From Candidatus Collierbacteria bacterium RIFOXYD2_FULL_45_13 (GTDB lineage Bacteria > Patescibacteriota > Microgenomatia > UBA1400 > MFAQ01), in assembly GCA_001774685.1 (NCBI GenBank), contig MFAS01000001.1, positions 705,485 to 769,484 on the forward strand: a stretch of 64,000 nt of DNA, written 5' to 3'. The notes under the pieces were generated by a model, which searched no databases, had not been told where the DNA came from, and was given only the letters and a program-made list of their open reading frames with translations. Positions 2,841 through 56,120 of this stretch are shown here, piece after piece; positions within the stretch are counted from its first letter, which is position 1, and every line of letters begins with the position of its first letter. The position numbers and the translations under genes were made by a program.

Positions 2841-2879
2841 AGGTAAAAATTGATAGTTATTTGAGTATATACTGAATTA

Positions 2880-12495: not shown

Positions 12496-14547
12496 ATGGA
12501 CTTTCAACTAGAATCGACCTACCGACCTACCGGAGATCAGCCCAATGCTATCGAAAAACTGGCCATCTCTATCGATCAGCAAAATCCTCACCAAACCTTG
12601 GTGGGAGTTACCGGTAGTGGTAAAACCTTTACGATTGCCAACGTCATCCAAAAAACTCAGCTCCCGACTCTGGTCATGTGCCACAACAAAACCCTGGCAT
12701 CACAGCTATACCAAGAGTTCAGAGACTTCTTTCCCCACAATGCCGTCTCATATTTTGTTTCCTACTACGATTACTACCAGCCGGAAGCCTACATTCCCCA
12801 AACCGACACCTATATCGAAAAAGAAGCTGATATCAATCCGGAGATCGACAAATTCCGCCTAACTACTACGGCCAACCTACTATCACGCCCCGATAGTATT
12901 GTGGTTGCCTCCGTTTCGTGTATTTACAATATCGGCTCACCTCTTGACCAGGAAAAGAACTTGTTGCCTCTGGCCAAAGGACAGGTAATCTCTCGGGATA
13001 CCGTCCTCATGCGCCTGTCTGACCTTCAATACACCAGAACAAATTCTGAACTGACTCGGGGTATGTACCGCGCCGTCGGCAGTACCGTCCAGCTTTTTCC
13101 CTCCTACAAAGATATCATCATTTCCATGAATTTCAGTGGTAGCTCGCTGGAAAATATTGAAATTCTCGATCCGATGAACTTCACCAGGATCGACGATGAA
13201 GACCTAGACAATACCGGCTTTATCACCATTCATCCCGCCAAACTGTTTATCACCAACCCTAAAACCCAGGGCGATGCTGTTGCCAATATAAGAAAAGACT
13301 TGGAAACCCAGGTGAAAGCATTTAAAGATGCCGGTAAGATTATTGAAGCCCATCGGATCGAACAAAAGGTTAATTACGATCTCTCCATGCTCGAAGAGGT
13401 GGGCTATGTCAGCGGCATCGAAAATTATTCCCGCTACTTTGATGGCCGCGTACCGGGTTCTGCCCCATATTCCCTGTTTGAATATTTTCATTACAACGCC
13501 AAGAAATTTAACAAACCCGGTTTCCTAACCGTCATCGACGAATCCCATATTTCTCTGCCTCAAGTCAGAGGGATGTACAACGGTGATCAAGCCCGTAAAG
13601 ACAACCTAATCAATTTTGGTTTCCGTCTCCCCAGTGCCAAAGACAACCGTCCCCTAACCTACACCGAGTGGCAATCCAGAACTCCGATCAAACTCTACTG
13701 CTCCGCCACTCCCACCGAACACGAACTATCGCTCTCGCGTGGAAGCAAGATCCCCACAGTTGCGGAGCAACTTATCCGTCCCACCGGACTCCTAGATCCA
13801 CAAATACAGGTTTTCCCTGCCAAAGGCCAGATCGATCACCTGACTCAAGAAGTCATCAAAAGAACGGCCAAGGGCGAAAGAACTTTGATACTTACGATGA
13901 CCAAGAGAATGGCCGAGGATCTTTCCGATCACCTTAAAGAAAAATATCAATTGAAGGTTGAGTATCTTCACTCGGATATACATACAATTGACCGTGCCGA
14001 TATCTTGGACAAGCTACGCTTGGGCGACTTCGACTGTCTCGTCGGTATCAATCTCTTGCGCGAAGGACTTGATCTACCGGAAGTCTCATTGGTGGCCATT
14101 CTGGATGCCGATAAAGAAGGTTTCTTGCGCACTTCGACAGCACTCATTCAAACCATGGGCCGCGCCGCCCGTCACGTCAACGGTGAGGTCTATCTATATG
14201 CCGACCGCATCTCCGATTCCATGAAAATCGCCATGGAAGAAACTCTTCGCCGGCGGAAAATTCAGCTGGATTACAACACCAAGCACGGCATTACTCCACA
14301 GGGGATAGTCAAGCCAATCCGCGACCGATTATTTAAGGCCGAAAGCCAAACGCCAGCTCCCAGAATCAAAGAACTGGCCGAGCACGGCTGGAAAGAGATT
14401 GATGATATCAATCCGGAAGCCCTCACTCCTCAGAAGAAGAAAATCCTCGTCGTCAAACTAAAAAAAATGATGAACCAAGCAGCCAACTCCTGGAACTTCG
14501 AACTCGCCGCCCGCTACCGCGACACCATTCGAAAATTGGGGCAATAA
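12496..14547 (+). CDS. uvrB: excinuclease ABC subunit B
   Basis: 683 aa with the helicase motifs GVTGSGKT and DESH, and a C-terminal UVR domain (ELAARYRD). Confidence 0.95.
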   Translation: MDFQLESTYRPTGDQPNAIEKLAISIDQQNPHQTLVGVTGSGKTFTIANVIQKTQLPTLVMCHNKTLASQLYQEFRDFFPHNAVSYFVSYYDYYQPEAYIPQTDTYIEKEADINPEIDKFRLTTTANLLSRPDSIVVASVSCIYNIGSPLDQEKNLLPLAKGQVISRDTVLMRLSDLQYTRTNSELTRGMYRAVGSTVQLFPSYKDIIISMNFSGSSLENIEILDPMNFTRIDDEDLDNTGFITIHPAKLFITNPKTQGDAVANIRKDLETQVKAFKDAGKIIEAHRIEQKVNYDLSMLEEVGYVSGIENYSRYFDGRVPGSAPYSLFEYFHYNAKKFNKPGFLTVIDESHISLPQVRGMYNGDQARKDNLINFGFRLPSAKDNRPLTYTEWQSRTPIKLYCSATPTEHELSLSRGSKIPTVAEQLIRPTGLLDPQIQVFPAKGQIDHLTQEVIKRTAKGERTLILTMTKRMAEDLSDHLKEKYQLKVEYLHSDIHTIDRADILDKLRLGDFDCLVGINLLREGLDLPEVSLVAILDADKEGFLRTSTALIQTMGRAARHVNGEVYLYADRISDSMKIAMEETLRRRKIQLDYNTKHGITPQGIVKPIRDRLFKAESQTPAPRIKELAEHGWKEIDDINPEALTPQKKKILVVKLKKMMNQAANSWNFELAARYRDTIRKLGQ

Positions 14548-14551
14548 CTAG

Positions 14552-15094
14552 CTACATTTTTTTATAATCTTCTGAGCCAATTCCCTCAGTAACGTTTTTA
14601 AGAATTTCAATCATAAGATCATCTGGAATAGGATGCCCTAATTCTTTTTCTTCCTTATATTTCCAATAGAAAATTTTGCCAAACCGTAATTCATCTGCTT
14701 TTCCGGCATCTACCAATTCCTGCATTCTGTTTCCTAATTCTCGACCTAGTCCAGGATCCATCTCAACTAGCTTAAGCCAAAAACCTGCTAAATCCATATT
14801 CCTCCGCGCCAAAAAATGTCTTAATCTCGCAGAATCAGCAAATTCATCCCTTCTCGATAAAGCATTATCATCACTGCTTAAACCTCTGACTGGTTTTTTT
14901 AATAGATCCATGCAAGTTTGAACTGATTCAACAGTTGCCCCTTCTCTGTCACCAGCACCATCCATCACCGTTGCGGCCATTCTCATGGCATCATTGGCCT
15001 CAATTCCGTCTTCAGATTGTAGTCTGCCAGCATAGTTCCTTAGTGCCTCTTCAGCAAGTTCAGTGTGAGCGAAGTCTAAAAAAGGTGATTCCAT
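14552..15094 (-). CDS. hypothetical acidic protein (island edge)
   Basis: 180 aa with no recognisable motif; convergent on uvrB. Confidence 0.4.
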   Translation of the reverse strand: MESPFLDFAHTELAEEALRNYAGRLQSEDGIEANDAMRMAATVMDGAGDREGATVESVQTCMDLLKKPVRGLSSDDNALSRRDEFADSARLRHFLARRNMDLAGFWLKLVEMDPGLGRELGNRMQELVDAGKADELRFGKIFYWKYKEEKELGHPIPDDLMIEILKNVTEGIGSEDYKKM

Positions 15095-15165: not shown

Positions 15166-15714
15166 ATGGACGAAGCAAAATTGGTGAGTAGTACTTGGGT
15201 TGAAAAAGGTGTGACTATGAAGTTTACCTGGTATCCCGGCGATAATCTGGAAAGGTTTCAACCATTCAATCAGGTATACGGTGTCGTCTTTAATTCAGAT
15301 GGTCAGATGCTTATTCAAAGAAGGGAGTTAAGACCTTGGTGCCTGGCCGGAGGTACTGTCGAAGAAGGGGAGACAGCCGAACAAGCTCTCAGACGAGAAC
15401 TAATTGAAGAAGCCGATGTCACCATCAAAAATCTCATCTTACTCGGTGGTCAAAGAGTGCAATTTCCCGGAGGTCACAACCCGAATCCGACCAAACGCTT
15501 TACTGGCGATGATTTTTATCAACTCCGTTATTACTGTGAAGTTGATGAGGTTCTACCTCAAACACCGGACCCCGATCACGATATCATCAACGAACGGCTC
15601 TTTGTTCCTCAAACAGAAATAAACAAATACCTGGGCTGGGGTGCCACGGGACAAGTGATCTTTGATCAAGCCATCGCTCTTTTTCATCAACTCCACCCTG
15701 CTATACTAAATTAA
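15166..15714 (+). CDS. NUDIX hydrolase (paralog A)
   Basis: Nudix box GGTVEEGETAEQALRRELIEEADV, matching G-x5-E-x7-REUxEE. Confidence 0.8.
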   Translation: MDEAKLVSSTWVEKGVTMKFTWYPGDNLERFQPFNQVYGVVFNSDGQMLIQRRELRPWCLAGGTVEEGETAEQALRRELIEEADVTIKNLILLGGQRVQFPGGHNPNPTKRFTGDDFYQLRYYCEVDEVLPQTPDPDHDIINERLFVPQTEINKYLGWGATGQVIFDQAIALFHQLHPAILN

Positions 15715-15723
15715 TGCTTACTG

Positions 15724-15966
15724 GTGACGACGAGAAAAAATATAACCCTGATCATTGATGGAATTGTTGAAGCATTAGAGGGTTTGGTTCTACCCAGATT
15801 CGACAAGATGGACGGGAGATTCGACAAGATGGATGGCGACGTCGCCGAACTTAAACAAGCGGTCGAGATTCTTGATTCAGATATGGGTGGAGTCAAGATG
15901 AGACTCAAAGTGGTCGAAAACAAACTGGACACGCTACTCTTTTATTTGTTCTCATCTTGGGTTTGA
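15724..15966 (+). CDS. small coiled-coil protein with a tandem heptapeptide repeat
   Basis: 80 aa. The DNA has a 21-bp near-perfect tandem duplication encoding [14 protein letters not shown]. Its 3' end overlaps the convergent CYTH gene by about 25 bp. Confidence 0.35.
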
Positions 15967-16472
15967 ATTTTATCAAAAATGGTAAACACTTCCTCTCCAG
16001 CTACTTCCACCTTATCTCCCAAAAGATCAATCAATTTCTGAACATCCGCTTCGTTCGGACCTTCAATCTCGGCAATATGTAGCTCTACCGGCTTCGAAAA
16101 ACCAATAAAGGCAAACACTGTTTTGTCCTTGTTCCAAATTTCTCTCACAGAAAAGTTTTCCTTTATCAATTTACATCCGAGAGAAAAAAGTATTTCCTTC
16201 ATATTTTCCGGATTATCTATGGATACATTTAGCTCTCGCCTTGTCCAGACACCTGCGTTATCCCGCTTGCCGTCTTTCAAAGTCAGCTCTTTAAACTCAC
16301 CGAACACTTCTCTCAGTCGATACAGGCTTTGGATATTGGTCATAGTATCCGCGCCAGTTCCAAAATACGAATCTCTAATTTCTTTGAATTTAGTAAAAAC
16401 AAAACCATTCGCCTTGAGCCAATCAACCACGGCTTCTCGATTTGTATATTTCAGTTTGACTTCAATTTCCAT
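15942..16472 (-). CDS. CYTH domain protein (CyaB/thiamine-triphosphatase-like)
   Basis: Starts MEIEVKL, the ExExK signature of CYTH, and is 176 aa, the typical CYTH size. Confidence 0.7.
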
Positions 16473-16488
16473 ATTATTTAATTCTTAG

Positions 16489-17232
16489 TTATTTCGTGAT
16501 TACTTTTGTTGCTTTTATTAAGTAAAACTTAGGCTTCATGAAAGCTTCGTAATAATCTTTTAATCCACTCCTCTCTGCTTCCTCGTCTGGTTTCATGTCT
16601 AAGTACTCAGTTATATATAGATTATTCTGAACGAGGGCGCCAACTAAAGTTTGGAAAGTATGGTGATACTGAATTTGTTTAAGGTTAAGAGGAGCCCATT
16701 CTCTTTCAAATTTCCCTTCTTCAAAATAGTTCCCAAGTAGAAATGCTTGTGGTTCTGTTCCTTTGACCTTTGTAGTCAAAAAAGAATATGGAACATGGCC
16801 TGAAAAAAGAAAGCTACCACCGGGCTTTAATACTCGGCAAACTTCAGAAAACGCTTTCTTTAAATCGGGAAGGTAGTCAATCACGAGTCCCGAAAACACA
16901 TAGTCGAAACTTGAATTTTGATATGGTAATTTCTCAACAGATCCAACCTTGAATTCAACATTTGGCAATTCTCTTTCTGCAATCTCAATTAACTTCTCAC
17001 TTTTATCAATACCAGATACTTTTGCTCCCAATCTAACAAATTCTTTTGTATATCTACCACTACCACAGCCTAAATCCAAGACATTCTTATCTTTTAAGTC
17101 CTGACTATTTAAAAATCTAATCGTATGAGGATATTCCAGCCATTTATTCCAGAAGTTATGACTGTCATCCATGTAGTTATGGTAGCTACCAGCAAACTGG
17201 TCGTAAGATGTTTTCACTTTTAAATTATTCAT
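16489..17232 (-). CDS. class I SAM-dependent methyltransferase
   Basis: Motif I VLDLGCGSGRYT with an acidic residue after beta-2 (GIDKSE). Confidence 0.8.
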   Translation of the reverse strand: MNNLKVKTSYDQFAGSYHNYMDDSHNFWNKWLEYPHTIRFLNSQDLKDKNVLDLGCGSGRYTKEFVRLGAKVSGIDKSEKLIEIAERELPNVEFKVGSVEKLPYQNSSFDYVFSGLVIDYLPDLKKAFSEVCRVLKPGGSFLFSGHVPYSFLTTKVKGTEPQAFLLGNYFEEGKFEREWAPLNLKQIQYHHTFQTLVGALVQNNLYITEYLDMKPDEEAERSGLKDYYEAFMKPKFYLIKATKVITK

Positions 17233-17263
17233 GCTTACTCAAATTCTAGCGCCAAATAAGACT

Positions 17264-18727
17264 TTACTCCAGTGCCAAGCCTGCCGCGACGGAAGTAAAT
17301 GGGTCAAACTCCGTAACTTTCTCTTTTCCAAAAATTTCCTCCAGCATTTTTTCGAATACTGGTACCAAAGAAGACCCTCCGGTTCTCACCACCACATCTA
17401 TATCCTTTGGCTCCAAATCGGCGTTCTTGATTGTTCTCAGGACTGTCTCTCTGACAGCCAGAACCCTCGGCTGGATCATCTTCTCAAACTCCAATCGAGT
17501 AATTTCCTCATCAATATCAATAAGGCCGTCTTTAAACACAATCCTAGCCTTTTCGTTATTGGTCAACAGCTTTTTTGCCACCTCGATTGCCTCATACATC
17601 TCAAACCCCAAATTCTTTTGAATCAAATATAGAAGCCACTCAATTGCTTTTGGGTCGGTATTTTTGTATTTTACATTTCCTGTTAGGAAACCAATATCGT
17701 CAGGATTATTTAAGTTCGGGATTCCAAACCAAGACCTTAGTCCGGCAATGATATGCCCCGGCATTCTCATCTGCATCTCGCCAAAGCGGACTTCAGTACC
17801 GAAATGCTTACCCAGTTTATGATAAAAAATATCCGAGTTAAGTAGATCTCCTCCCACATATACCCCGTCGGTCGCCAATACCTTGTACCCACTATTTTGA
17901 TTTTTTGAATTTTCGAGTTTTTCTTCGCCCACTTCCATTATTGTTGTATCGAATGTTCCTCCTCCAAAATCAAAAACGAGAATCATCTTCCCTTTACTGG
18001 GAAACTTGGACAAATAGTATTTGGCTGCCGCCACCGGTTCAAACTGGAATTTCACCTCATCAAACCCTGCGGCTCGTATTGCCTTCTCCAGTCGGTCCTG
18101 TGCGGCCATATCGGCCTCAGGACTAGTTGAAAACGAGACGGGTCTACCACAAACCACCGATTTTCTTGTTTCTCCGGCTATCAAATCCGCTGTTTTCTTG
18201 AGTTCACTCACAAACTTTCCAATCATTTCCTCTAGGGTATATTCTTTTCCAAAGACTCGCGCGCCCTTATAGTGGGGGGACTTTAAAGCGGTCTTGAGAG
18301 CGTGAAAAAGCCTTCCCGTACCAAAATCCACCTCCTCGTAGTAATCGGGGATATCTCCAGTCACCACCTTCCCGCTGGGAGTAGTATACAAAATGACATT
18401 ATTGTATTTACCCGTATAGATCCTTCGTTTGACGCCTTCATGCCTGGATTTATTGTCATTTAGGTAGGTTTTTACCGCCAGATTACCGGTAGCAACTTTC
18501 TCTTCACCTTCGTACCACACCTGATCGAACATGAAAGTATTAGTCGTTAGCTGTTCTTTGTTTACCTTATTCGAAATCATTAGCTTCCTGGGGTAGAAAT
18601 ACAAAGCAGATCTGGCCACACCTTTGTTCTCGGCTGCTTGGTCAACAGGCATCAAAACCGCCTCACCGTTGACGAGCGTGCTCAGAGAAGTATTTGTGGT
18701 ACCAAAATCCAGTCCGTAAAAAGCCAT
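17264..18727 (-). CDS. Hsp70-family actin-like ATPase (NBD only, non-canonical)
   Basis: Phosphate-1 motif GLDFGTTNTS and phosphate-2 motif VFDFGGGTFD. It lacks a typical DnaK substrate-binding domain and lid. The listed ORF starts at an upstream TTG; the ATG at 18727 is the likely start. Confidence 0.7.
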   Translation of the reverse strand: MAFYGLDFGTTNTSLSTLVNGEAVLMPVDQAAENKGVARSALYFYPRKLMISNKVNKEQLTTNTFMFDQVWYEGEEKVATGNLAVKTYLNDNKSRHEGVKRRIYTGKYNNVILYTTPSGKVVTGDIPDYYEEVDFGTGRLFHALKTALKSPHYKGARVFGKEYTLEEMIGKFVSELKKTADLIAGETRKSVVCGRPVSFSTSPEADMAAQDRLEKAIRAAGFDEVKFQFEPVAAAKYYLSKFPSKGKMILVFDFGGGTFDTTIMEVGEEKLENSKNQNSGYKVLATDGVYVGGDLLNSDIFYHKLGKHFGTEVRFGEMQMRMPGHIIAGLRSWFGIPNLNNPDDIGFLTGNVKYKNTDPKAIEWLLYLIQKNLGFEMYEAIEVAKKLLTNNEKARIVFKDGLIDIDEEITRLEFEKMIQPRVLAVRETVLRTIKNADLEPKDIDVVVRTGGSSLVPVFEKMLEEIFGKEKVTEFDPFTSVAAGLALE

Positions 18728-18981
18728 AAAACATTTGGAGGTTAACCTAAAAATTGTACAGCATGTGTTGCATAATTGCGCAGCTAAAAACTTACCAGAA
18801 TGAAAGAACACCAACTCTTCTGTCAGGAGGACTAATCATCATTTAGATAACATTATTTACACCGAAAACAAATCCAGATTAAAGTGTTCATTTTCATTTC
18901 ACAGTCTGCTTTAATTTTAAACCATTACCTAATAATGTATTTAGCTAGAAATCAAGATCAGAGACTGTAAATATAATGATA

Positions 18982-19500
18982 TTATTTTTGATATTTTATT
19001 GCTGCCCTCAACATTTGTCTTCCATGTTCACCCCAGTTCACATAAAAGTTCGCTTCGTCTGGTTTGACGAATCTTATTTCATCGATAGTACCATCCTCTG
19101 GATCCGGTGTTCTGATAACTGTTCTGTCGACAACACTTACAGTACATAATTGGAAGAAATCATTTTCGTTTTGATCATTCAGGGGACCTCGGACTTTAAA
19201 AGCTCCAAAAAGATGAATGCCCTTAGGGATTATTCCTGTTTCCTGAGTCATCTCTCTAGTTACTGTTTCTTGAAAAGTTTCGTTATTTTCGGGGCCACCT
19301 CCTTGAAAGCGCCAAACCCCATTTTCATTTTGGATCAGAACATGACCTTCACCATTGAAACATATACTATGTACCAAGGAATACGGTTTGAATTGTGTCA
19401 AGTCGTCTCCCTCAATCCATGTATAAAGATATTGTTTACCTTCCCACTCTACAATTTCGTTCTCCACAGGTCTATCGCATTCAGACATATCCAATATCAT
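18982..19500 (-). CDS. NUDIX hydrolase (paralog B of 15166-15714)
   Basis: Nudix box FQGGGPENNETFQETVTREMTQETGI, and C-terminal similarity to paralog A. The start at MILDM lies one nucleotide after the stop of the upstream gene, suggesting translational coupling. Confidence 0.7.
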   Translation of the reverse strand: MILDMSECDRPVENEIVEWEGKQYLYTWIEGDDLTQFKPYSLVHSICFNGEGHVLIQNENGVWRFQGGGPENNETFQETVTREMTQETGIIPKGIHLFGAFKVRGPLNDQNENDFFQLCTVSVVDRTVIRTPDPEDGTIDEIRFVKPDEANFYVNWGEHGRQMLRAAIKYQK

Positions 19501-19501
19501 A

Positions 19502-20170
19502 TTACAAATCAATAGGCAGGGTGTGTTCAATCCTGTATTTACTTTCTTCTGATTTATAAACATTCTTCCTATCTATTAAAATACCTTTTATAATACATAT
19601 CTCAGCAAAAGTGTCTAGATTTGTAACAAGGTCATCGATAAAAATAATATTTTTCGATAATACGATTTTGTTTATCATCAAAAAATAGAAATTCTTATCA
19701 TTTTTTAAAAAACCAATTTCATCAGAAATAAAAAACTGTTTGGCATAAGAGTTTAAATTCAGCAATTCTAAGGTTTTTCTTCTGCTGGGACGTCCATCTG
19801 AAATAATATAAACATTCCCCCCCTTTTTGTAATTTTCGAGTGCCGGTATGGCATCAGGATATAGTACATGAGCCAGTGTTCGATACTTGCTTATTGATAT
19901 CTCCCTTGCCTTATCTTCAAAGTTATTAAGGTTCAGATAAGTATTTAAAAAACCACCAAAATGATGTTCGGTTAATTTTAGTTCTTCTTTGAAGTCTTTA
20001 AAGGTAAGAGATCTATCATATAGATTACTCGACAGGCAATAGCTTTCATATTTACCCTTCAAGTCGCGATCGGAAACCCCTAAAATATTTTCCATGATTT
20101 GTAGATCAGTTTCAAATTCCGGTAATATTCTGTAACCTAATGTCTCTGCGAAATCTATAAATATATCCAT
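19502..20170 (-). CDS. HAD-like hydrolase with a degenerate motif I
   Basis: Motif II YIISDG, a Lys region, and motif IV IIFIDDLVTN are present. Motif I reads FIDFAET, so the second Asp is missing and the protein may be inactive or a variant. Confidence 0.35.
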   Translation of the reverse strand: MDIFIDFAETLGYRILPEFETDLQIMENILGVSDRDLKGKYESYCLSSNLYDRSLTFKDFKEELKLTEHHFGGFLNTYLNLNNFEDKAREISISKYRTLAHVLYPDAIPALENYKKGGNVYIISDGRPSRRKTLELLNLNSYAKQFFISDEIGFLKNDKNFYFLMINKIVLSKNIIFIDDLVTNLDTFAEICIIKGILIDRKNVYKSEESKYRIEHTLPIDL

Positions 20171-21750
20171 TATTCTGAACCTGATAGAAACTTAGCGATT
20201 AAATCAGAATTTATCTCAAATTCTTTTCTGATTTCTTCCATAGTTCCACGCCTCGTGGGATGATTTATATGATATACTCCACAAGCTAGCACGGGTATTA
20301 TAAAGGCCCCAGCTGAAATCGCCTTTATTCCGATAAGAGAATCTTCCAGTCCATAACCGCTAAATTTATTATCAAAACCTCCAGTGGCGTAAAAAAGATT
20401 CTTTGGAATTGACAAATTGTGACCAACAACCATTGAAGGTAGATCAAAATTGCCGAGTCTTCTCCCAAAACCCAATGTCCTAAAGTAATTTGTTTCTGAC
20501 AGTATCGAAAAAATATCCCCTTGCGCTAAATAGTTGTTGGAGTAATATCCCATAGTGTCCTTATCAATGTACTTGGTAATTCTCAGGTCACTGCTATAGT
20601 TTGGCATCACAACACCGCGCTTAACTGCATCGTAAGATATTCTCACATCAGTTGGTTCAGCATTCTCTTTGAAACTTACAAGCAGGGCTTTATTAACAAG
20701 TTTGTGCCTCAGCAGATGCTCGTATAAATAATTTGGTGTTAGTACCACATCACCATCGATAAACAATAGAATATCATTTGAAGAAACTGCGGCACCGATG
20801 TTCCTCGTTTGTGAGATACCTGAATTTTTTTCTTTTCTAATAATAATGGGTTCATAGCGCAAATCATCCTGAACCTTTTTGATAATTTCCGAGACAGGTT
20901 CTTTTGATCCATCATCTACGACAATGACCTCAAATTTAATTACATCGGGAGTTTGTCGGTCTATTGATTTTAAAGTTTTGATTATAGATTCCCCTAGATT
21001 AAATGCCGGAATGATTATCGACACTGATGGCAAATCCGCGGTATAAATCTTGGGAGTCGGGGCAGAACCGAGCATTTTGTATCCGGTTATTTGTTCAAAA
21101 ACTGTAACAAGCTCACCGTAATCATTAGAAACGGCGCTTATTTGATGAAAATAGGAAGTGGTGGTAGACAAAGATAAGCTCAGATTCACCTGTTTGCAAA
21201 AATTAATAACCTTTTCATTCAATACTCCGAGATCATCGACTAAGCTTTCATCAACAATTTTACTGGTTCTATGGATAAGCTTATCTTTATCAATCTTATT
21301 CTTAAGTATTTTTTGAATTGTCTCTGATTTAAACTTAGCATCTTCGTGGCACAGAATTTCAAACTGATGTTCAGAAATCAGAGTATCACTAAGGTAAATA
21401 ACGCTAGCCTCTTGATCCTCCGGGAAAGAGAGCTGTATTACGTTACTGAGAGCAGCACTCTTTAATCCTGCACCAAAAAGCACATTTAATAACGTACCTA
21501 AAAATTTGGATTTAAATTTCGCTTCTCTCCAGGTTTCTGTGGTCTTCACCGAGATACGACGTCCCAAGAATAGGTTGTTTTCATCACACCTAAGTCTGAT
21601 TTCATTTTCGAAATACAATGTCAACACTCTCTTAACACGCGGAAACCCAAGTTCGTTAGACAAATCACGTATTAGTTGATTCACTTCAGCGTCATCTTGA
21701 AAAAGACAAATATTGTTAATTAAATCGGATTTTGACGCATCGTATCTCAT
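20170..21750 (-). CDS. family 2 glycosyltransferase with a 240-aa N-terminal domain of unknown function
   Basis: GT2 core (VSIIIPAFN...VIVVDDGS...FIDGDVV) in the C-terminal half; the N-terminal half has no recognisable motif. Confidence 0.7.
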   Translation of the reverse strand: MRYDASKSDLINNICLFQDDAEVNQLIRDLSNELGFPRVKRVLTLYFENEIRLRCDENNLFLGRRISVKTTETWREAKFKSKFLGTLLNVLFGAGLKSAALSNVIQLSFPEDQEASVIYLSDTLISEHQFEILCHEDAKFKSETIQKILKNKIDKDKLIHRTSKIVDESLVDDLGVLNEKVINFCKQVNLSLSLSTTTSYFHQISAVSNDYGELVTVFEQITGYKMLGSAPTPKIYTADLPSVSIIIPAFNLGESIIKTLKSIDRQTPDVIKFEVIVVDDGSKEPVSEIIKKVQDDLRYEPIIIRKEKNSGISQTRNIGAAVSSNDILLFIDGDVVLTPNYLYEHLLRHKLVNKALLVSFKENAEPTDVRISYDAVKRGVVMPNYSSDLRITKYIDKDTMGYYSNNYLAQGDIFSILSETNYFRTLGFGRRLGNFDLPSMVVGHNLSIPKNLFYATGGFDNKFSGYGLEDSLIGIKAISAGAFIIPVLACGVYHINHPTRRGTMEEIRKEFEINSDLIAKFLSGSE

Positions 21751-21758
21751 ATTTGTAA

Positions 21759-22268
21759 TTATTTAATATTTCTGTCCAGACCAAAAAGGTTTTTGTATTG
21801 GACGAGATCTAATTCCAAAAATTGATATTTTTTTGGATCAAAAAACATTTCAGGGTAAAAGTTTGAACTATCCCGCAATTCCTCTTCAGTTTTTAGTATA
21901 CATTTTTTAATTTTTTCATATCCTGTATATTCTTTCTGAACTATTTCAATTTCATTAAATTTCATTTCCGTTTCACATTCAAAAAAGAACTCAAAGTTTC
22001 TATCAAATGGGGATACGGTTTCTTTTACAAATCTCAATTCTTTGGCTACAAAATTCTTTATGTTTAATTCTTCACCAATTTCCCTGTCTAGTGTTGCAAT
22101 CAAGGATTCGTTGGATTTTGCGTGACCTCCAGGGAAAAGTAGATAATCATTTCTTGAGGCGTTCATCTGCTCAATAACTAAATATTTTTCATCAAACTTG
22201 AACACGGCTCTGACAACCACAACAATTTTTTCGTTATTCATATTAGTTTGAATACCATCTGTTAACAA
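21759..22268 (-). CDS. NUDIX hydrolase (C)
   Basis: Nudix box FPGGHAKSNESLIATLDREIGEELNI. Confidence 0.75.
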   Translation of the reverse strand: MLTDGIQTNMNNEKIVVVVRAVFKFDEKYLVIEQMNASRNDYLLFPGGHAKSNESLIATLDREIGEELNIKNFVAKELRFVKETVSPFDRNFEFFFECETEMKFNEIEIVQKEYTGYEKIKKCILKTEEELRDSSNFYPEMFFDPKKYQFLELDLVQYKNLFGLDRNIK

Positions 22269-22881
22269 AGGGGATAGAACCCTTAAGATTATCTAAATCC
22301 TGTTTTGGGATAAGTAAGTTCATAACTCTTTTTGTGTCATCCTTATCATCAGGAACATGGATAAGGTTAGAAGCGAATAAGTCAATACCAATTTGCTTTG
22401 TGGTCACAGGATCTAGGGTCCCGTTCTTCCACGCTTCGAGCGTTTGATCATCGATCGGATTACTGCTACCAAATCTTCCCCGAACTCCCTCGCCTGTTCT
22501 AACACTGCCCTTGAGTTTTTTTAATAAAATTGGTGCGTCCTTAGCCGCTACGAGCATGAGTCCAATCGGACCTGTTTGAAAATGCTCCTGAATATATTTT
22601 AAAAACTCCTCATGCTTCTGTTCAGGGTATAACTTCTTAACATCCTCAGGTTTAATACGGATTTCGGTAAATCCAAAAAATTCCACAGGTTTATCTGTCA
22701 TTTGTTCCAACTCTCGCTGGATAAAATCCCTAATGGGCAAATCAAGAAGCGAGTTGGTGGAATCAGGTTTAAAGAGAACCATGCCAATCCCATTTTTTTC
22801 TTCCTCGGGAGTTAATATGTCTTCGTAAAAATCTCCCATTTCACTAAATCTATTTTGAACATAATCTGGAGTTATTTCCAT
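22243..22881 (-). CDS. nucleoside diphosphate kinase-like protein (divergent)
   Basis: An MVLFKPDS region corresponds to the IKPD motif, and NLIHVPDD corresponds to the NxxHGSDS active-site His motif. At 212 aa it is longer than canonical NDK. Confidence 0.5.
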   Translation of the reverse strand: MEITPDYVQNRFSEMGDFYEDILTPEEEKNGIGMVLFKPDSTNSLLDLPIRDFIQRELEQMTDKPVEFFGFTEIRIKPEDVKKLYPEQKHEEFLKYIQEHFQTGPIGLMLVAAKDAPILLKKLKGSVRTGEGVRGRFGSSNPIDDQTLEAWKNGTLDPVTTKQIGIDLFASNLIHVPDDKDDTKRVMNLLIPKQDLDNLKGSIPFVNRWYSN

Positions 22882-23750
22882 ATTTCCAATTGTTTTATAT
22901 AATCCACAACCGACTCGGGCGATCCTTGAATTGAGTAACAGGGGATTTTTTGAGCAACTTCTTTAACGGATTGTATTCTATGGTCACCATTCGCACGACT
23001 ATCAATTGAAGGCACAGCGATATTACCATCTTTAACTCTTCTGGAGATTGCTCTAATTTTTCTACCTAGTTCTTCATATAAATGCCACTCAAATTTTTCC
23101 GGTCTCCAAAGATCTGTCGACATCTCAGCACCATTTATTCCAAAACCGTAGACAAATAAAGCGATCGGAACAGGTTCAGAATTATTAGTTGCTGAATGGT
23201 AATAAGAGTCCTCTTGTTTGTCGGTGATCTGTCTCTTCCAATAGTCTTTATCTAGATAAATAAAGGGGATTCCTCCAAGTATTTCCATATTCCTCGCATT
23301 AACTAATGTCTTCTCATCGGAATAGAAAGACCCATCATTTGCGAGCAGTTTTGCAAGCCTTGTCTTACCCATCCCACTTGCACCTCCCCAAAAGATTACA
23401 GCCTTGCCTTTATAAACTGCCGTAGCGGAATGAATACAAAAAATGCCTTTCTCCTGTCTGACTCTTTCAAAAACCAACTCTATTAATGAGATTATCTCTT
23501 TTTCGCTTACTCCTTTTATGCCTATTTTAATCTTCGGATAATCTTTAAATTCAAAAAAAACTTCTTGATTCAAAAATTCTACGCTAGCCTCAATATTATT
23601 ATCAGTCGCAAGAGAGAATCCTGGAATATATTTACTTAAAAAATCATTATTTTGTATTGTCTCCGCCAATTCACCACTCTCAAAAATCACTCTTAGTGTT
23701 AATCCTGCTGAAGAAAGGTATAGCTCTTTATTCTTTGATGGCATTTTCAA
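22872..23750 (-). CDS. HPr kinase/phosphorylase C-terminal-domain-like P-loop protein
   Basis: IHSATAVYKGKAVIFWGGASGMGKTRLAKLL matches the HprK-type P-loop region (VLIxGxSGxGKSE). Confidence 0.55.
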   Translation of the reverse strand: MKMPSKNKELYLSSAGLTLRVIFESGELAETIQNNDFLSKYIPGFSLATDNNIEASVEFLNQEVFFEFKDYPKIKIGIKGVSEKEIISLIELVFERVRQEKGIFCIHSATAVYKGKAVIFWGGASGMGKTRLAKLLANDGSFYSDEKTLVNARNMEILGGIPFIYLDKDYWKRQITDKQEDSYYHSATNNSEPVPIALFVYGFGINGAEMSTDLWRPEKFEWHLYEELGRKIRAISRRVKDGNIAVPSIDSRANGDHRIQSVKEVAQKIPCYSIQGSPESVVDYIKQLEIWK

Positions 23751-24846
23751 AATAATTTTCTAAATTCATTGCTTTTATATCCCAATTCCAGGTTTCGGAT
23801 TTTTTTCTGGCCTCATCGCCAATAGTGTTACGGAGAGTTTCATCCAATAGTAATTTTTCAATCTCGGTCGCGAGCGATACGGCATCCCGCGGATTCGCAA
23901 GTAGACCATTGACACCATGGTCTACAAATTCAGGCATGCTACAACTATTTGTTGTAACGGTTGGTATACCACAAGCCGCAGCTTCAAGCATCGTCGTTAG
24001 CACACCCTCACGATCAAATGATGGGGCAGAAAAAACTTTCGATCTGTTGTACAAGGAGAGTACATCTTCTTGGGGGACATAACCAATAAATTCGATATTG
24101 TCTGAAAGTTCTAGTCTATCAACCAGCTCTACCAACGACTCTTTCTGATTACCTTTTCCGGCAATCACCACTTTTGGATTTAGTCCTTTGTTAACTAAAA
24201 TTTTAACAGCATCGACAAGATAGTTAACACCTTTTACTGGAACCAGTCTGCCAAAATACAAAATATCTATGTCTTTGGTAACTTGTATTGGATGATAGTT
24301 TGTCGTATCTATCCCATTTGTGAAGGGTATATATTCAATTCCGCCAACCATTTCTGACCATTTCTGTCCAATATATTTTGATACTGAAATATATTTTACA
24401 TTTGGAAATGAGAACCAGATTTTGTCGTAATACTCTGCTTCAGCAGGAACACCGTGCAGAAACATTACTGCGGGGAACTTAATATTTGCAGCCAAAATAT
24501 CCACGTTGTAATGGACATTAAGTACGTCATAAATATTTTTATCGAAATAATTTTGAGCTAATCTTCCCATGTGAATAGCTTCGTAGTCCCATCTCAGCTG
24601 ATTTGTTCCGGGTTTTTCCTCATATATCCATCTGAGGGATGTGGGTAATTCAAGATAGATGACTTCAACGCTTGGATTCACTGAGAGATACTTGTCAAAA
24701 TATTCTGAGTTACCATCGGGATGGCGGGAAGTAACGACCGTTACCTTATGTCCATGTAAAGCAAAATTTCTAGCCATTTCCAGTGGAACCACCTCCCCAC
24801 CCCCAACATAATAACTTACCCTAGGCTGATAAATGGCTATTTTCAT
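23728..24846 (-). CDS. family 4 (GT-B) glycosyltransferase
   Basis: 372 aa with the C-terminal EGVLTTMLEAAACGIPTVTT motif (E-x7-E region) typical of GT4. Confidence 0.8.
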   Translation of the reverse strand: MKIAIYQPRVSYYVGGGEVVPLEMARNFALHGHKVTVVTSRHPDGNSEYFDKYLSVNPSVEVIYLELPTSLRWIYEEKPGTNQLRWDYEAIHMGRLAQNYFDKNIYDVLNVHYNVDILAANIKFPAVMFLHGVPAEAEYYDKIWFSFPNVKYISVSKYIGQKWSEMVGGIEYIPFTNGIDTTNYHPIQVTKDIDILYFGRLVPVKGVNYLVDAVKILVNKGLNPKVVIAGKGNQKESLVELVDRLELSDNIEFIGYVPQEDVLSLYNRSKVFSAPSFDREGVLTTMLEAAACGIPTVTTNSCSMPEFVDHGVNGLLANPRDAVSLATEIEKLLLDETLRNTIGDEARKKSETWNWDIKAMNLENYFENAIKE

Positions 24847-25334
24847 ATCAAATTATCTTTTAGAGTCATAATCTGTGCTTTTCCTGTCGGGCTGTTTGCC
24901 CAGCTTATATATTGGTCAAACTCGTCAATATCTATTAGTTTACGTTCGAAAATCTCGTCGTCGGGAATAAATTCCGGTAAATCACTCAATATTACTAAAA
25001 ATCTTAATTGTGAACTTGATTTACCCTCAACCCCTTCATTCTGAGGATCCGAAACTTTCATCCAACCTATCAATTTAGACTTATACCTCTCTTTGATTTC
25101 AGCTTCCTCGTCAAGTTCTCTTGCAAGAGCTTCTTCTACACTCTCTCCCTCCTCTGGGTGACCTCCTGGAATTGCCCACCCTCTCTTATTTCTCACAATA
25201 ATCAGCTTCCCTTTATATATACAGTAAGCACTCACCTGGCTGACTTTTAATGTGGGGTCAGGATTTCCTGAAAACCAGCTAATAGTAATATTACGATCAT
25301 CAAAATTGACTACCTCAGTTGCTAATGGTTCCAT
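24843..25334 (-). CDS. NUDIX hydrolase (D)
   Basis: Nudix box IPGGHPEEGESVEEALARELDEEAEI. Confidence 0.8.
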   Translation of the reverse strand: MEPLATEVVNFDDRNITISWFSGNPDPTLKVSQVSAYCIYKGKLIIVRNKRGWAIPGGHPEEGESVEEALARELDEEAEIKERYKSKLIGWMKVSDPQNEGVEGKSSSQLRFLVILSDLPEFIPDDEIFERKLIDIDEFDQYISWANSPTGKAQIMTLKDNLI

Positions 25335-25336
25335 TA

Positions 25337-26050
25337 TTATTTGTTACTAAGATTGTTAAATGATTCCAATAATACTATCTTAAAACCTCCGACAAAATTG
25401 GCCATTGCCTTTTGTGAAAACCAACCTAAGGGTAGAAAAATCACGCGAAATACTTCATAAAACAGTTTTGATCTCTTTGGTAGTGGAATATATCCCTCCT
25501 TCAAGATTTTAAAACCGGCAATCGTAAATAATTTATTTAACTGCTTTTCATTATAGTGATGAATATGACCATATCTCTCCTCGCTTTCCTTCCACGGGTC
25601 TCTAATGCCGAGTTTTCGGATAATTTGATTATCTAGAAAAGAATCTTCCATCGGAACTTTAATACAAACCAGCTTACCCAATTCACCCATGCGTTTTAAC
25701 AAACCCAAGTCATCTTCTACGTGTTCAATGATATCAATGCCTGTAACTAAGTCAAAATTTGCCTTAGGGGAGTACTTATATATATCCTCGCAAATCCACT
25801 CAATTTCATGGTCCGTATCATTCTCCTTCGCCACTTTTATCATATCTTTGGAAATATCAATTCCTACAGCCATATCTGGCTTTAGTTTTGCATTGAATTC
25901 CATGGTAATACCACCTGCACCACAAGCTACATCCAGAAGTGAGTCTATTTTTAGTGAACCTAAAAAATTTAAGACTTGCTTAGCTTTTAACTGAGCTTGT
26001 TCCAGATGAAGTCCCGGATTTTTTAAAATATATTCTTTTTGATAATCCAT
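25337..26050 (-). CDS. class I SAM-dependent methyltransferase
   Basis: Motif I LLDVACGAGGIT. It is the first gene of the overlapping operon. Confidence 0.8.
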   Translation of the reverse strand: MDYQKEYILKNPGLHLEQAQLKAKQVLNFLGSLKIDSLLDVACGAGGITMEFNAKLKPDMAVGIDISKDMIKVAKENDTDHEIEWICEDIYKYSPKANFDLVTGIDIIEHVEDDLGLLKRMGELGKLVCIKVPMEDSFLDNQIIRKLGIRDPWKESEERYGHIHHYNEKQLNKLFTIAGFKILKEGYIPLPKRSKLFYEVFRVIFLPLGWFSQKAMANFVGGFKIVLLESFNNLSNK

Positions 26051-47251: not shown

Positions 47252-47322
47252 AGTATATTTAGTGTATCAAGCGTGTTACACAATTGCAACATATATTACA
47301 GTTAGTATATTCCCATTATTGG

Positions 47323-53821: not shown

Positions 53822-53864
53822 TCATTATTCACCACCTTTCAAATCTAATTAATAATTATATAAG

Positions 53865-54137
53865 TTAGTCAAAGGGCTCCATTCGCACCACCGGCAAATT
53901 GGAAGAAATAATGGATCTAACCGAAGCTCTTAAAACACCTAAATTCTCTTGCTTAATAGTCGGTACATTTTCGGATATAGTTATGGAACTTTCTCGAGAT
54001 AACCTTGCCTGCCAGACTTGAATCAATAAAAAACCCCAAAACATTGTCCAAAGCACAATAGTGACCGCCACCTCCAGATTAATTTTAAGAACCAGTTGAT
54101 TCTCCTGCTCTTTGATGGTCATATCATTTCTTTTCAA
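53865..54137 (-). CDS. small membrane protein in the pilus locus
   Basis: 90 aa with one TM helix. Confidence 0.35.
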   Translation of the reverse strand: MKRNDMTIKEQENQLVLKINLEVAVTIVLWTMFWGFLLIQVWQARLSRESSITISENVPTIKQENLGVLRASVRSIISSNLPVVRMEPFD

Positions 54138-56105: not shown

Positions 56106-56120
56106 CTATATATCATCTTA

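What the first reader, a model, noticed from the sequence alone, without database searches (positions are those of the whole stretch)
15166..19563. Strand-flipped NUDIX paralog pair bracketing CYTH, a methyltransferase and an Hsp70-like NBD
NUDIX A (forward) and NUDIX B (reverse) share a clearly homologous C-terminal half (DPDHDIINERLFVP versus DPEDGTIDEIRFVKP). They flank a block of three genes: a CYTH domain protein, a SAM methyltransferase, and an Hsp70-family ATPase that lacks a substrate-binding lid. CYTH proteins act on triphosphate-bearing substrates. Stand-alone Hsp70-like NBDs often serve as partner or regulatory ATPases rather than chaperones. This sub-module may be a separately regulated part of the island.
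Basis: partly seen in the sequence, partly recalled or inferred. Interest (0 to 1): 0.5.

Follow-up and report, generated by a model that had tools for sequence, protein, structure and literature searches.

The report
Variable phosphohydrolase operon beside repair genes

Summary
Window 15166-19563 holds NudA (+), CYTH, a class I SAM methyltransferase (MT1), an Hsp70 nucleotide-binding-domain-only protein and NudB (all -). NudA and NudB are 35% identical over about 150 aa, which is nearly their full length.

The window comes from Candidatus Collierbacteria. The genes lie in a low-GC, roughly 11-kb variable locus between uvrB and uvrA that carries four NUDIX genes.

In relatives, only the Hsp70-like gene and the convergent NudA orthologue are constant. 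MT1 and NudB have no counterpart in any relative. CYTH recurs downstream of the Hsp70-like gene in a subclade, but the partner genes between them differ: a nucleotidyltransferase-like protein, or pyrophosphatase-like plus histidine-phosphatase genes with or without an HD domain. A 7-codon stump of a lost small NUDIX gene follows CYTH in the window.

All CYTH catalytic residues are invariant, and its model best matches the Sulfolobus triphosphatase SaTTM. The Hsp70-like protein keeps its ATPase motifs and ends before the interdomain linker. The window has no DnaJ, GrpE or cNMP receptor.

My best reading is an Hsp70-like-led, cargo-swapping operon of nucleotide and polyphosphate hydrolases. That would mean house-cleaning or salvage, not a chaperone, cAMP or defence system. 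Interest is moderate to low.

The parts
12496..14547 (+). uvrB, the core gene that bounds the variable locus on the left
   Evidence: 683 aa; 83-91% identical to uvrB in L081, L083 and L090; GC 0.48
14552..15094 (-). Conserved hypothetical protein (180 aa, no Pfam hit), a resident neighbour of NudA
   Evidence: 85% identical orthologue in L090 in the same position; also present in L109; no family hit
15166..15714 (+). NudA: resident NUDIX hydrolase, convergent to the Hsp70L operon. Its Nudix box is GGTVEEGETAEQALRRELIEEAD.
   Evidence: PF00293, 63 bits. Orthologues at 71-83% identity sit next to uvrB in L001, L081, L083, L090 and L109. GC is 0.45, like the core genes. Nearest PDB sequences are MTH1/MutT-type, weakly.
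15724..15966 (+). orf80: a doubtful 80-aa ORF with a 21-nt tandem repeat (RFDKMDG twice). It fills the sequence that replaced the lost small NUDIX gene.
   Evidence: repeat D1, 15796-15836. Annotated as a hypothetical protein in public records. Its only match is a 25% identical coiled-coil-like ORF in L105.
15935..15955 (-). Stump (first 7 codons, MRTNKRV) of a deleted small MutT-like NUDIX gene. It overlaps the CYTH stop codon exactly as the intact gene does in relatives.
   Evidence: Translation compared with the L106 NUDIX129. In the DNA alignment about 68 nt remain alignable (about 84% identical across the three sequences), after which homology is lost. tblastn hits from five orthologues support this.
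15942..16472 (-). CYTH / triphosphate tunnel metalloenzyme (176 aa), SaTTM/CyaB-like, predicted to be catalytically competent
   Evidence: Pfam and TIGR00318 hits. Invariant E2, E4, K6, D34, Y36, R52, R54, K66, R78, R79, E80, K104, E105, R110, E135 and E137. AF2 pLDDT is 86. Foldseek best match is SaTTM 7nsd/7nsf, E = 5e-11, TM 0.73-0.75. The family profile's only PDB hit is SaTTM. GC is 0.39.
16489..17232 (-). MT1: class I SAM-dependent methyltransferase (247 aa), strain- or species-specific cargo, substrate unknown
   Evidence: Methyltransf_11, 91 bits. Nearest PDB entries are uncharacterised small-molecule MTases and phosphoethanolamine MTases. No orthologue in any related locus. An exhaustive search gives a best hit of 46% identity. 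GC is 0.35.
17264..18727 (-). Hsp70L: Hsp70-family protein with the nucleotide-binding domain only (487 aa), a resident anchor gene and first gene of the operon
   Evidence: AF2 pLDDT is 89.5. Foldseek TM to NBD-only Hsp70 structures is 0.63-0.74. ATPase residues are conserved, the protein ends before the linker, and it has four insertions. GC is 0.44 and GC3 0.48, like the core genes.
18728..18981 (.). 254-bp AT-rich intergenic gap upstream of Hsp70L; a candidate site for a separate promoter (not shown)
   Evidence: Sequence. No Rfam match. No pseudogene remnant. The promoter scan gave no more hits than chance.
18982..19563 (-). NudB: a diverged NUDIX paralogue of NudA (likely start 19500). 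Its Nudix box is REMTQETG, with Q in place of the first E of the EE pair. It has no orthologue in relatives.
   Evidence: Its best hits in relatives are NudA orthologues at 33-35% identity. It recurs in several assemblies of the same species. GC is 0.39.
19502..26050 (-). Upstream 8-gene low-GC block: HAD (YjjG-like), GT2, NudC, NDK-like, HprK/ScmC-like P-loop, GT4, NudD and MT2. It lies mostly outside the finding and is present or absent as a unit.
   Evidence: The same order occurs in L081/L082 at 61-77% identity. The block is absent in L001/L089, where uvrA abuts Hsp70L. GC is 0.30-0.39.
26217..29141 (+). uvrA, the core gene that bounds the variable locus on the right
   Evidence: 974 aa; 89-90% identical in L081 and L001; GC 0.47

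Best explanation
The finding covers one end of a lineage-specific plasticity locus in Candidatus Collierbacteria. The locus lies inside the excision-repair cluster (lexA, uvrB, the locus, uvrA, uvrC).

Two genes are resident: an Hsp70 NBD-only ATPase (YegD-like in architecture) and the convergent NUDIX hydrolase NudA. Between and beside them, low-GC cargo genes are gained, lost and replaced.

In this genome the Hsp70L-led operon carries an orphan SAM methyltransferase and a CYTH enzyme. A small MutT-like NUDIX that once followed CYTH has been deleted. NudB and an 8-gene glycosyltransferase/NUDIX/kinase block lie upstream.

The cargo across relatives is dominated by enzymes that cleave or transfer phosphoanhydride and phosphoester groups on nucleotides: NUDIX of several subfamilies, CYTH, Ham1/ITPase, pyrophosphatase-like, histidine phosphatases, HD_4, a YjjG-like HAD, NDK-like and a nucleotidyltransferase-like protein.

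The most likely function (inferred) is a set of individually acting house-cleaning and salvage enzymes. CYTH would hydrolyse inorganic triphosphate and/or NTPs by the two-metal TTM mechanism. The NUDIX paralogues would hydrolyse non-canonical NTPs or NDP-X compounds. MT1 would methylate an unknown small molecule.

What the Hsp70-like ATPase does is unknown. It is not a DnaK-type chaperone because it has no substrate-binding domain.

Shown here: gene content, paralogy, conservation of catalytic residues, folds, synteny and its variability, and the deletion scar. Inferred: substrates, co-transcription and the physiological role.
For: **Source and family**
- Source organism and the size of the Hsp70L family.

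**Composition**
- GC drops to 0.35-0.40 across 15-26 kb, against about 0.45 outside.
- Per gene, Hsp70L is 0.44 and NudA 0.45, like uvrA and uvrB at 0.47-0.48. CYTH is 0.39, MT1 0.35, NudB 0.39 and the block 0.30-0.39.

**Synteny survey**
- L081/82 have the block but no CYTH, MT1 or NudB.
- In L001/89, uvrA abuts Hsp70L, and an ABC-2 transporter plus a small NUDIX fill the slot.
- L090 also carries an ABC transporter.
- L083 has radical-SAM cargo, with CYTH about 5 kb away.
- L085 has Hsp70L plus a different NUDIX at another genomic site.
- L087, L002, L092 and L097 have no NUDIX.

**CYTH contexts**
- L103: Hsp70L, PPase-like, His_Phos_1, CYTH, then a convergent NUDIX.
- P0131's contig: uvrA, Ham1, CYTH, a convergent NudA orthologue, uvrB, with no Hsp70L.
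- L106-109: Hsp70L (identified in L106 only), p187, CYTH, NUDIX129, then (in L109) GNAT and the convergent NudA.
- L110: PPase-like, His_Phos, HD_4, CYTH, His_Phos, NUDIX, then the convergent NudA.
- L104 and L105 show unrelated contexts.

**Other evidence**
- Deletion stump.
- Nudix-box ORF density is 1 per 9 kb near Hsp70L in close relatives and 1 per 145 kb near distant homologues.
- The CYTH active site and fold are intact.
- SaTTM is a triphosphatase that prefers PPPi about 19-fold over NTPs and forms no cAMP (PMC8233210).
- The HAD's best NCBIfam hit is the YjjG non-canonical pyrimidine nucleotidase, well below cutoff.
- No known defence system matches, and there is no Rfam element.
Against: - No substrate has been tested for any of these proteins. 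'House-cleaning' is inferred from family membership and from what the genes are found next to.
- 'Hsp70L, then X, then CYTH' recurs on the same strand with gaps or overlaps of a few nucleotides (L103, L106-108, probably L110, and the window). This argues for some functional coupling and against purely independent enzymes.
- The glycosyltransferases, methyltransferases and HprK-like kinase in the island do not fit a simple pool-sanitation story.
- Most relatives come from short metagenomic contigs, so the sampling is small: about 10 distinct configurations, and they are phylogenetically non-independent.
- Identity between the window and L081 is similar for cargo (61-77%) and for the resident Hsp70L and NudA (71-75%). 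Low GC alone therefore does not prove recent horizontal acquisition.
Confidence: 0.57

Rival explanations
1. This is a dedicated multi-enzyme pathway. The Hsp70L-led operon (Hsp70L, a variable modifying enzyme X, CYTH, a small NUDIX) acts on one common nucleotide-like or polyphosphate substrate. X (methyltransferase, nucleotidyltransferase or phosphatase) would diversify the product, and the NBD-only Hsp70 would act as an ATP-dependent regulator or scaffold.
For: The same order, the same strand and tight spacing or overlaps are seen in L103, L106-108 and the window, and in L110 if its unidentified upstream fragment is Hsp70L. The CYTH-NUDIX adjacency recurs even without Hsp70L. A CYTH with a DUF2064-NUDIX fusion and a kinase-like gene form a second conserved cassette.
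Against: X is not conserved, and MT1 is unique to this species. Several close relatives have Hsp70L and NudA with no CYTH at all. The small NUDIX has been deleted here. Hsp70L homologues beyond about 60% identity show no association.
Confidence: 0.22
2. This is an anti-phage or conflict island. CYTH and the NUDIX proteins would deplete or generate nucleotides as an immune effector or signal, with the Hsp70-like ATPase as sensor.
For: The locus is variable, low in GC and turns over its cargo. There are weak PADLOC hits of the NUDIX genes to the candidate PDC-S07 and of the MT1 domain to mad2. GT4 has a weak GT4-conflict Pfam hit. CYTH and NUDIX have been discussed as nucleotide-targeting enzymes in phage-host conflicts (PMC7824862). 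One CYTH homologue sits among toxin-antitoxin genes.
Against: No PADLOC model hits Hsp70L, CYTH, HAD, GT2, NDK-like or HprK-like. The NUDIX and MTase hits are generic domain matches. No nuclease, toxin, integrase or mobile-element gene is present in the island. The resident genes are syntenic and core-like in composition.
Confidence: 0.08
3. This is a cAMP (cNMP) signalling unit. CYTH would be a class IV adenylate cyclase (CyaB), with the NUDIX or phosphatase genes degrading the signal.
For: The best NCBIfam hit is TIGR00318 cyaB at 56.1 bits, just under its 57.95 cutoff. The DxY motif is shared by the CyaB/SaTTM cluster. YpAC-IV is among the structural matches.
Against: The nearest structure and the only profile-level PDB hit is SaTTM, which is a triphosphatase and makes no cAMP. 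YpAC-IV ranks lower, at TM 0.61-0.64. The window has no detectable cNMP-binding protein or CRP-like regulator, although four large ORFs returned no domain hit.
Confidence: 0.06
4. This is a specialised chaperone system. The Hsp70-like protein would fold or assemble the neighbouring enzymes, using DnaJ and GrpE encoded elsewhere.
For: The protein belongs to the Hsp70 family and keeps its ATPase residues.
Against: It has no interdomain linker, no SBD-beta and no lid. The window has no J-domain, GrpE or second Hsp70. Its neighbours change between genomes.
Confidence: 0.03

Closest known systems
SaTTM (Saci_0718), the triphosphate tunnel metalloenzyme of Sulfolobus acidocaldarius (PDB 7ns8, 7nsd, 7nsf; PMC8233210)
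   Same: It has the same length class (about 175 aa), the same single-domain eight-stranded tunnel with a C-terminal plug helix, the ExExK and DxY motifs, the basic and acidic tunnel residues and the IEIEG motif. It is the best Foldseek match (E = 5e-11, TM 0.73-0.75) and the only PDB hit of the family profile.
   Different: Identity is only about 20%. The organism is bacterial (CPR) and mesophilic. Activity has not been tested. The genomic context (downstream of an Hsp70 NBD-only gene, next to NUDIX genes) has not been described for SaTTM.
Class IV adenylate cyclase CyaB (Yersinia pestis YpAC-IV, PDB 2fjt, 3n0z; TIGR00318)
   Same: It belongs to the same CYTH sub-cluster with ExExK and DxY, and it is the best NCBIfam model.
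   Different: The score is just below the curated cutoff (56.1 against 57.95). Structural similarity is lower than to SaTTM (TM 0.61-0.64). The window has no cAMP receptor. Cyclase activity cannot be inferred from sequence (PMC8233210).
E. coli YegD (NF008673 / PRK11678), an NBD-only Hsp70 paralogue
   Same: The architecture is the same: a DnaK-like nucleotide-binding domain with no linker, basket or lid (PMC13580251). It is the best NCBIfam hit. The ATPase motifs are kept.
   Different: The score is 134 bits against a cutoff of 331, and only the C-terminal two-thirds match. This family has four insertions, including a beta-hairpin at about residues 99-134. YegD's own function is unknown, so the resemblance gives no mechanism.
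House-cleaning NTP pyrophosphatases (MutT/NUDIX, Ham1/RdgB ITPase, YjjG HAD nucleotidase)
   Same: NudA's nearest PDB sequences are MTH1/MutT-type. Ham1 and a YjjG-like HAD occur in the same locus in this genome or in relatives. The location next to the uvrABC and lexA repair genes fits such a role.
   Different: All scores are far below the equivalog cutoffs, and no substrate is known. NudA, NudB and NudD form their own subfamily with an N-terminal extension. Glycosyltransferases and methyltransferases in the island are not part of classical pool sanitation.

Membership tests
CYTH / triphosphate tunnel metalloenzyme superfamily | N-terminal ExExK motif | tested here: met
   M-E2-I-E4-V-K6. 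E2, E4 and K6 are invariant in 25 family members.
CYTH / triphosphate tunnel metalloenzyme superfamily | Eight-stranded beta-barrel tunnel fold lined with basic and acidic residues | tested here: met
   The AF2 model has pLDDT 86 with the expected strand order. Foldseek gives 73 PDB matches at E <= 0.001; the top 19 are all CYTH/TTM proteins, while several lower ranks are Mediator head-module chains. R52, R54, K66, R78, R79, K104, R110, E80, E105, E135 and E137 are invariant.
CYTH / triphosphate tunnel metalloenzyme superfamily | Pfam PF01928 above the gathering score | tested here: met
   35.4 bits against a cutoff of 23.2
Class IV adenylate cyclase (CyaB, TIGR00318) | Score above the curated equivalog cutoff | tested here: not met
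   56.1 bits against 57.95, a near miss
Class IV adenylate cyclase (CyaB, TIGR00318) | Formation of 3',5'-cAMP from ATP | not testable with these tools
   The nearest characterised relative, SaTTM, hydrolyses PPPi and ATP and forms no cAMP (PMC8233210).
NUDIX hydrolase superfamily | Nudix box GX5EX7REUXEEXGU with the catalytic glutamates | tested here: met
   NudA has G-TVEEG-E-TAEQALR-RE-LI-EE-AD. NudC and NudD are likewise intact. NudB has RE-MT-QE-TG, with Q replacing the first E of the EE pair. All four pass the Pfam cutoff.
Canonical Hsp70 / DnaK chaperone | Actin-fold nucleotide-binding domain with catalytic D8, E171, D194, T199 and D201 equivalents | tested here: met
   D7, E230, D253, T258 and D260 are invariant. 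Foldseek TM to NBD structures is 0.63-0.74.
Canonical Hsp70 / DnaK chaperone | Interdomain linker, substrate-binding beta-basket and alpha-helical lid | tested here: not met
   The protein ends at the position of DnaK residue ~371-380. The Pfam HSP70 match stops at model position 370 of 599. The model contains no further domain.
Canonical Hsp70 / DnaK chaperone | Co-encoded J-domain protein and GrpE-type exchange factor | tested here: not met
   None is found in the 64-kb window (tblastn with a J-domain; Pfam). The rest of the genome was not available.
YegD (NF008673) | Score above the curated equivalog cutoff | tested here: not met
   134 bits against 331, and only residues 194-514 of the long ORF match. 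The NBD-only architecture is shared.
Class I SAM-dependent methyltransferase | Rossmann-like fold with the GxGxG SAM-binding motif; Pfam Methyltransf_11/25/31 above cutoff | tested here: met
   91, 85 and 87 bits. The motif is VLDLGCGSG. PDB homologues align over the full length.
Known anti-phage defence systems (PADLOC-DB 2.0) | Hits to the component proteins of a defined system | tested here: not met
   There are only generic domain hits: NUDIX to the candidate PDC-S07 and the MTase domain to mad2. Hsp70L, CYTH, HAD, GT2, NDK-like and HprK-like give nothing.

The most novel reading that the evidence does not exclude
In a Collierbacteria subclade, an NBD-only Hsp70 ATPase, a CYTH triphosphatase (or cyclase) and NUDIX hydrolases form a true functional system. 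Its middle 'modifier' gene (methyltransferase, nucleotidyltransferase or phosphatase) is swapped between strains. This would be a diversifying system that makes, modifies or destroys a nucleotide or polyphosphate, for example for conflict with phages or hosts, or for conditioning scavenged nucleotides. The Hsp70-like ATPase would be an integral regulator. That would give a first functional context for YegD-type proteins.
Probability: 0.12. Interest if true: 0.7.

Novelty: new member of a known kind. Interest (0 to 1): 0.3.

Why it matters
All five proteins belong to well-known superfamilies, and the 'module' dissolves on comparison with relatives. The finding is therefore mostly ordinary.

Three points have modest value.

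1. It documents a gene-flux hot spot inside the uvrB-uvrA repair cluster of a CPR bacterium. The hot spot is packed with nucleotide and phosphoanhydride hydrolases. CPR bacteria are widely reported to lack de novo nucleotide synthesis and to live on scavenged nucleotides (background knowledge, not tested here). A variable toolkit for cleaning or reshaping nucleotide pools would be relevant to how they cope with foreign or damaged precursors.

2. NBD-only Hsp70 proteins of the YegD type have no known function. A recurrent operon partner set (CYTH, NUDIX and other phosphohydrolases) is a testable lead.

3. The CYTH family here is a bacterial sister of the archaeal SaTTM-like enzymes and could help define what separates triphosphatases from class IV cyclases.

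Tried and rejected
- **Genome scan:** the one-genome-per-species scan with an Hsp70L alignment returned mostly Chloroflexota and other relatives at 30-37% identity. These gave no information on the module beyond showing no association.
- **Recent inverted duplication of NudA/NudB:** rejected. The only DNA similarity is 34 nt at 71% complementarity, and NudB is equally distant (33-35%) from all NudA orthologues.
- **Recent horizontal transfer of the 8-gene block:** not supported. Its identity to L081 (61-77%) is no higher than that of the resident genes.
- **Promoter and terminator scan:** no more hits than chance.
- **Rfam on the island:** no hits.
- **Pseudogene remnants:** none in the 254-bp gap upstream of Hsp70L or in the hyp-NudA gap; only the NUDIX stump after CYTH.
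- **PHROGs:** nothing informative.
- **Origin of MT1:** the exhaustive search gave a best hit of only 46% identity, and the cluster look-ups returned no organism names. Its origin remains unknown.
- **AFDB fold search for Hsp70L:** the library was unavailable.
- **Literature:** I found no paper describing a CYTH-NUDIX-Hsp70 association.
- **DnaK operon at 38.9-43.3 kb:** I guessed this from ORF sizes. It is BipA plus NAD synthase.

Full report
**1. What is there**

ORF listing and Pfam/NCBIfam scans confirm the five genes at 15166-19563:
- NudA (+, NUDIX)
- a 176-aa CYTH protein
- a 247-aa class I SAM methyltransferase (MT1)
- an Hsp70-family protein
- NudB (NUDIX); the last four are all on the minus strand.

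The Hsp70-like gene most likely starts at 18727 (MAFYGLDFGTTN, 487 aa). This equals a database protein from Candidatus Collierbacteria bacterium RIFOXYB2_FULL_46_14, a member of the Microgenomates within the CPR/Patescibacteria. NudB probably starts at 19500.

NudA and NudB are 35% identical over about 150 aa, nearly their full length. NudD (24843-25334) belongs to the same subfamily, and NudC (21759-22268) is a distant fourth NUDIX. All four Nudix-box ORFs of the 64-kb window lie in this one locus. The NudA/NudB pair is old. The only DNA similarity is 34 nt at 71% complementarity, and NudB is equally distant (33-35%) from every NudA orthologue.

**2. Setting**

The genes lie in an interval of about 11 kb (15-26 kb) where GC is 0.35-0.40, against about 0.45 elsewhere. 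The interval is bounded by uvrB (12496-14547) and uvrA (26217-29141). lexA lies just upstream and uvrC just downstream.

Besides the finding, the interval holds an 8-gene minus-strand block: YjjG-like HAD, GT2, NudC, NDK-like, HprK/ScmC-like P-loop protein, GT4, NudD and a second methyltransferase.

Per-gene composition separates two classes. Hsp70L (GC 0.44, GC3 0.48) and NudA (0.45) resemble uvrA and uvrB (0.47-0.48). CYTH (0.39), MT1 (0.35), NudB (0.39) and the block (0.30-0.39) are lower.

**3. Is the five-gene set a conserved module? No.**

I anchored on Hsp70L and then on CYTH.

With Hsp70L as anchor:
- L081/82 (Hsp70L 75% identical) have the same uvrA...uvrB interval with the 8-gene block. 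Hsp70L is followed only by a 129-aa NUDIX and the convergent NudA orthologue. CYTH, MT1 and NudB are absent.
- In L001/89 (84%), uvrA abuts Hsp70L, and an ABC-2 transporter plus a small NUDIX fill the slot before NudA.
- L090 (84%) also carries an ABC transporter there.
- L083/96 (74%) carry radical-SAM cargo. CYTH sits about 5 kb away, in a cassette that recurs elsewhere without Hsp70L (L111).
- At 62% identity only a different NUDIX remains next to Hsp70L, at another genomic site.
- At 50-52% identity nothing remains.
- None of the 78 loci around homologues of 30-37% identity, mostly from Chloroflexota, has a CYTH. Nudix-box ORFs there are about 16-fold rarer: 1 per 145 kb against 1 per 9 kb.

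MT1 has no orthologue in any locus. In an exhaustive search of 1.84 billion representatives its best hit is 46% identical. MT1, NudB and orf80 nevertheless recur in many assemblies of the same species, so they are not artefacts.

**4. What does recur**

In a Collierbacteria subclade CYTH sits downstream of Hsp70L on the same strand, with gaps or overlaps of a few nucleotides. The genes between them differ:
- MT1 in the window.
- A 187-aa protein with a Pol-beta nucleotidyltransferase-like GS...DIDIV motif in L106-109. The upstream gene was identified as Hsp70L in L106 only.
- Pyrophosphatase-like plus His_Phos_1 in L103.
- The same two genes plus HD_4 and a second His_Phos_1 in L110, where the upstream gene is only an unidentified 46-aa fragment at the contig edge.

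On another contig the whole uvrA-uvrB interval is Ham1/ITPase, CYTH and the convergent NudA orthologue, with no Hsp70L.

The constant theme is therefore enzymes that hydrolyse or transfer phosphoanhydride and phosphoester groups on nucleotides.

L109 is syntenic with the window on the uvrB side (uvrB, hyp14552, NudA). It shows that a small MutT-like NUDIX, overlapping the CYTH stop, was once present. The window retains its first seven codons (MRTNKRV, 15955-15935) and about 68 nt that still align at about 84% identity. After that, homology ends and stop codons follow. This is direct evidence of gene loss and replacement in the slot.

**5. The individual proteins**

*CYTH.* ExExK, DxY, RxR, K66, RRE, KE, R110 and ExE are invariant in 25 homologues. 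The AF2 model (pLDDT 86) best matches the Sulfolobus acidocaldarius triphosphate tunnel metalloenzyme SaTTM (E = 5e-11, TM 0.73-0.75), ahead of Yersinia class IV adenylate cyclase. SaTTM is also the only PDB hit of the family profile. SaTTM hydrolyses PPPi about 19 times better than NTPs and makes no cAMP (PMC8233210). The TIGR00318 cyaB score just misses its cutoff. I therefore predict a triphosphatase, with cyclase activity not excluded.

*Hsp70L.* It aligns only to Hsp70 nucleotide-binding domains and ends where the DnaK linker begins. The model (pLDDT 89.5) is an NBD with family-specific insertions, including a beta-hairpin at about residues 99-134. The ATPase residues are invariant. Its architecture is that of E. 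coli YegD (PMC13580251), but it scores 134 against a cutoff of 331 on the YegD model. YegD's own function is unknown. The window has no J-domain, GrpE or second Hsp70.

*MT1.* It is a small-molecule-type class I methyltransferase whose substrate cannot be assigned.

*NudA.* Its nearest solved relatives are MTH1/MutT-type, weakly.

*NudB.* It has Q in place of the first E of the Nudix-box EE pair.

**6. Interpretation**

Best explanation (confidence about 0.55-0.6): the finding is one end of a plasticity locus embedded in the excision-repair cluster. Hsp70L and NudA are resident anchors, and the cargo turns over and is dominated by nucleotide and polyphosphate hydrolases. The likely role is house-cleaning or salvage of nucleotide pools, which fits an organism that depends on scavenged nucleotides (background knowledge about CPR, not tested here).

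The tight Hsp70L-X-CYTH arrangement keeps alive a rival in which these genes form one pathway with a swappable modifier (about 0.2). Defence-island (about 0.08), cAMP-signalling (about 0.06) and chaperone (about 0.03) readings have little support. PADLOC gives no system-level hit, the window has no cNMP receptor, and the protein has no substrate-binding domain.

**7. Novelty and score**

Every protein is a new member of a known superfamily. The gene set is not conserved, and no new mechanism is demonstrated. The lineage-specific concentration of NUDIX, CYTH and other phosphohydrolases next to a YegD-type ATPase is an unreported but modest observation. Interest is 0.3. The most novel reading that the evidence does not exclude is a diversifying Hsp70L-CYTH-NUDIX system. 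I give it a probability of about 0.12 and an interest of about 0.7 if true.

Noticed in passing
window 15935-15955 (-): Seven-codon stump (MRTNKRV) of a deleted small MutT-like NUDIX gene. It overlaps the CYTH stop codon exactly as the intact 129-aa gene does in L106 and L109. Homology to relatives ends abruptly after about 68 nt.
   Followed up: yes
window 15724-15966 (+): orf80 occupies the roughly 230 bp that replaced the lost NUDIX. It contains a 21-nt tandem repeat (15796-15836) encoding RFDKMDG twice. Public records annotate it as hypothetical. Its only match is a weak coiled-coil-like ORF that sits next to a methyltransferase in L105.
   Followed up: partly
window 19502-26050 (-): Eight-gene block: YjjG-like HAD, GT2 with an N-terminal domain of about 240 aa that has no Pfam match, NudC, NDK-like, HprK/ScmC-like P-loop protein, GT4, NudD and a methyltransferase. 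It is conserved in the same order in L081/L082 (61-77% identity) but wholly absent from L001/L089. Its function is unknown; a nucleotide-sugar, glycan or phospho-modification pathway is possible.
   Followed up: partly
window 11123-32131: lexA, uvrB, uvrA and uvrC are clustered, with a transglutaminase-like membrane protein between uvrA and uvrC. The variable island sits inside this repair cluster. The same synteny (PPDK, enolase, iPGM, TP_methylase, lexA, uvrB) is seen in L081 and L083.
   Followed up: partly
window 18982-19563 (-): The NudB Nudix box reads REMTQETG, with glutamine in place of the first glutamate of the catalytic EE pair. Activity may be altered or reduced.
   Followed up: no
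L106 1118-1681, L109 152-715: A 187-aa protein sits between Hsp70L and CYTH in the closest relatives. It has a GSLxLDLVYGPDIDIV motif like Pol-beta-type nucleotidyltransferases but no Pfam or PHROG hit.
   Followed up: partly
L083 1336-6086 and L111 1579-6277: A second conserved cassette contains CYTH: CYTH, a dTMP-kinase-like protein of 259-261 aa, a DUF2064 (CofC-like)-NUDIX fusion and two radical SAM enzymes. It lies next to Hsp70L in L083 but elsewhere in the genome in L111.
   Followed up: partly
window 44645-49773 (-): A second low-GC patch (0.37-0.38 at 47-50 kb) holds an 816-aa ORF with no Pfam match (47323-49773). It lies next to an 868-aa Kelch-repeat/Big_13/CarboxypepD_reg protein, probably a surface protein.
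   Followed up: no
window 1404-4301: Two divergently transcribed phosphoglucomutase/phosphomannomutase paralogues (478 and 473 aa) sit next to a bacterial-type PGI, PPDK, enolase and iPGM. This is an ordinary glycolytic cluster.
   Followed up: no
window 53285-61795 (-): A type IV pilus gene cluster: pilins with an N_methyl motif, PilO, T2SSF, a T2SSE/MshEN ATPase, and two proteins of about 450-480 aa with no Pfam match (54651-57473). In L085 an Hsp70L homologue sits next to a similar pilus cluster.
   Followed up: no
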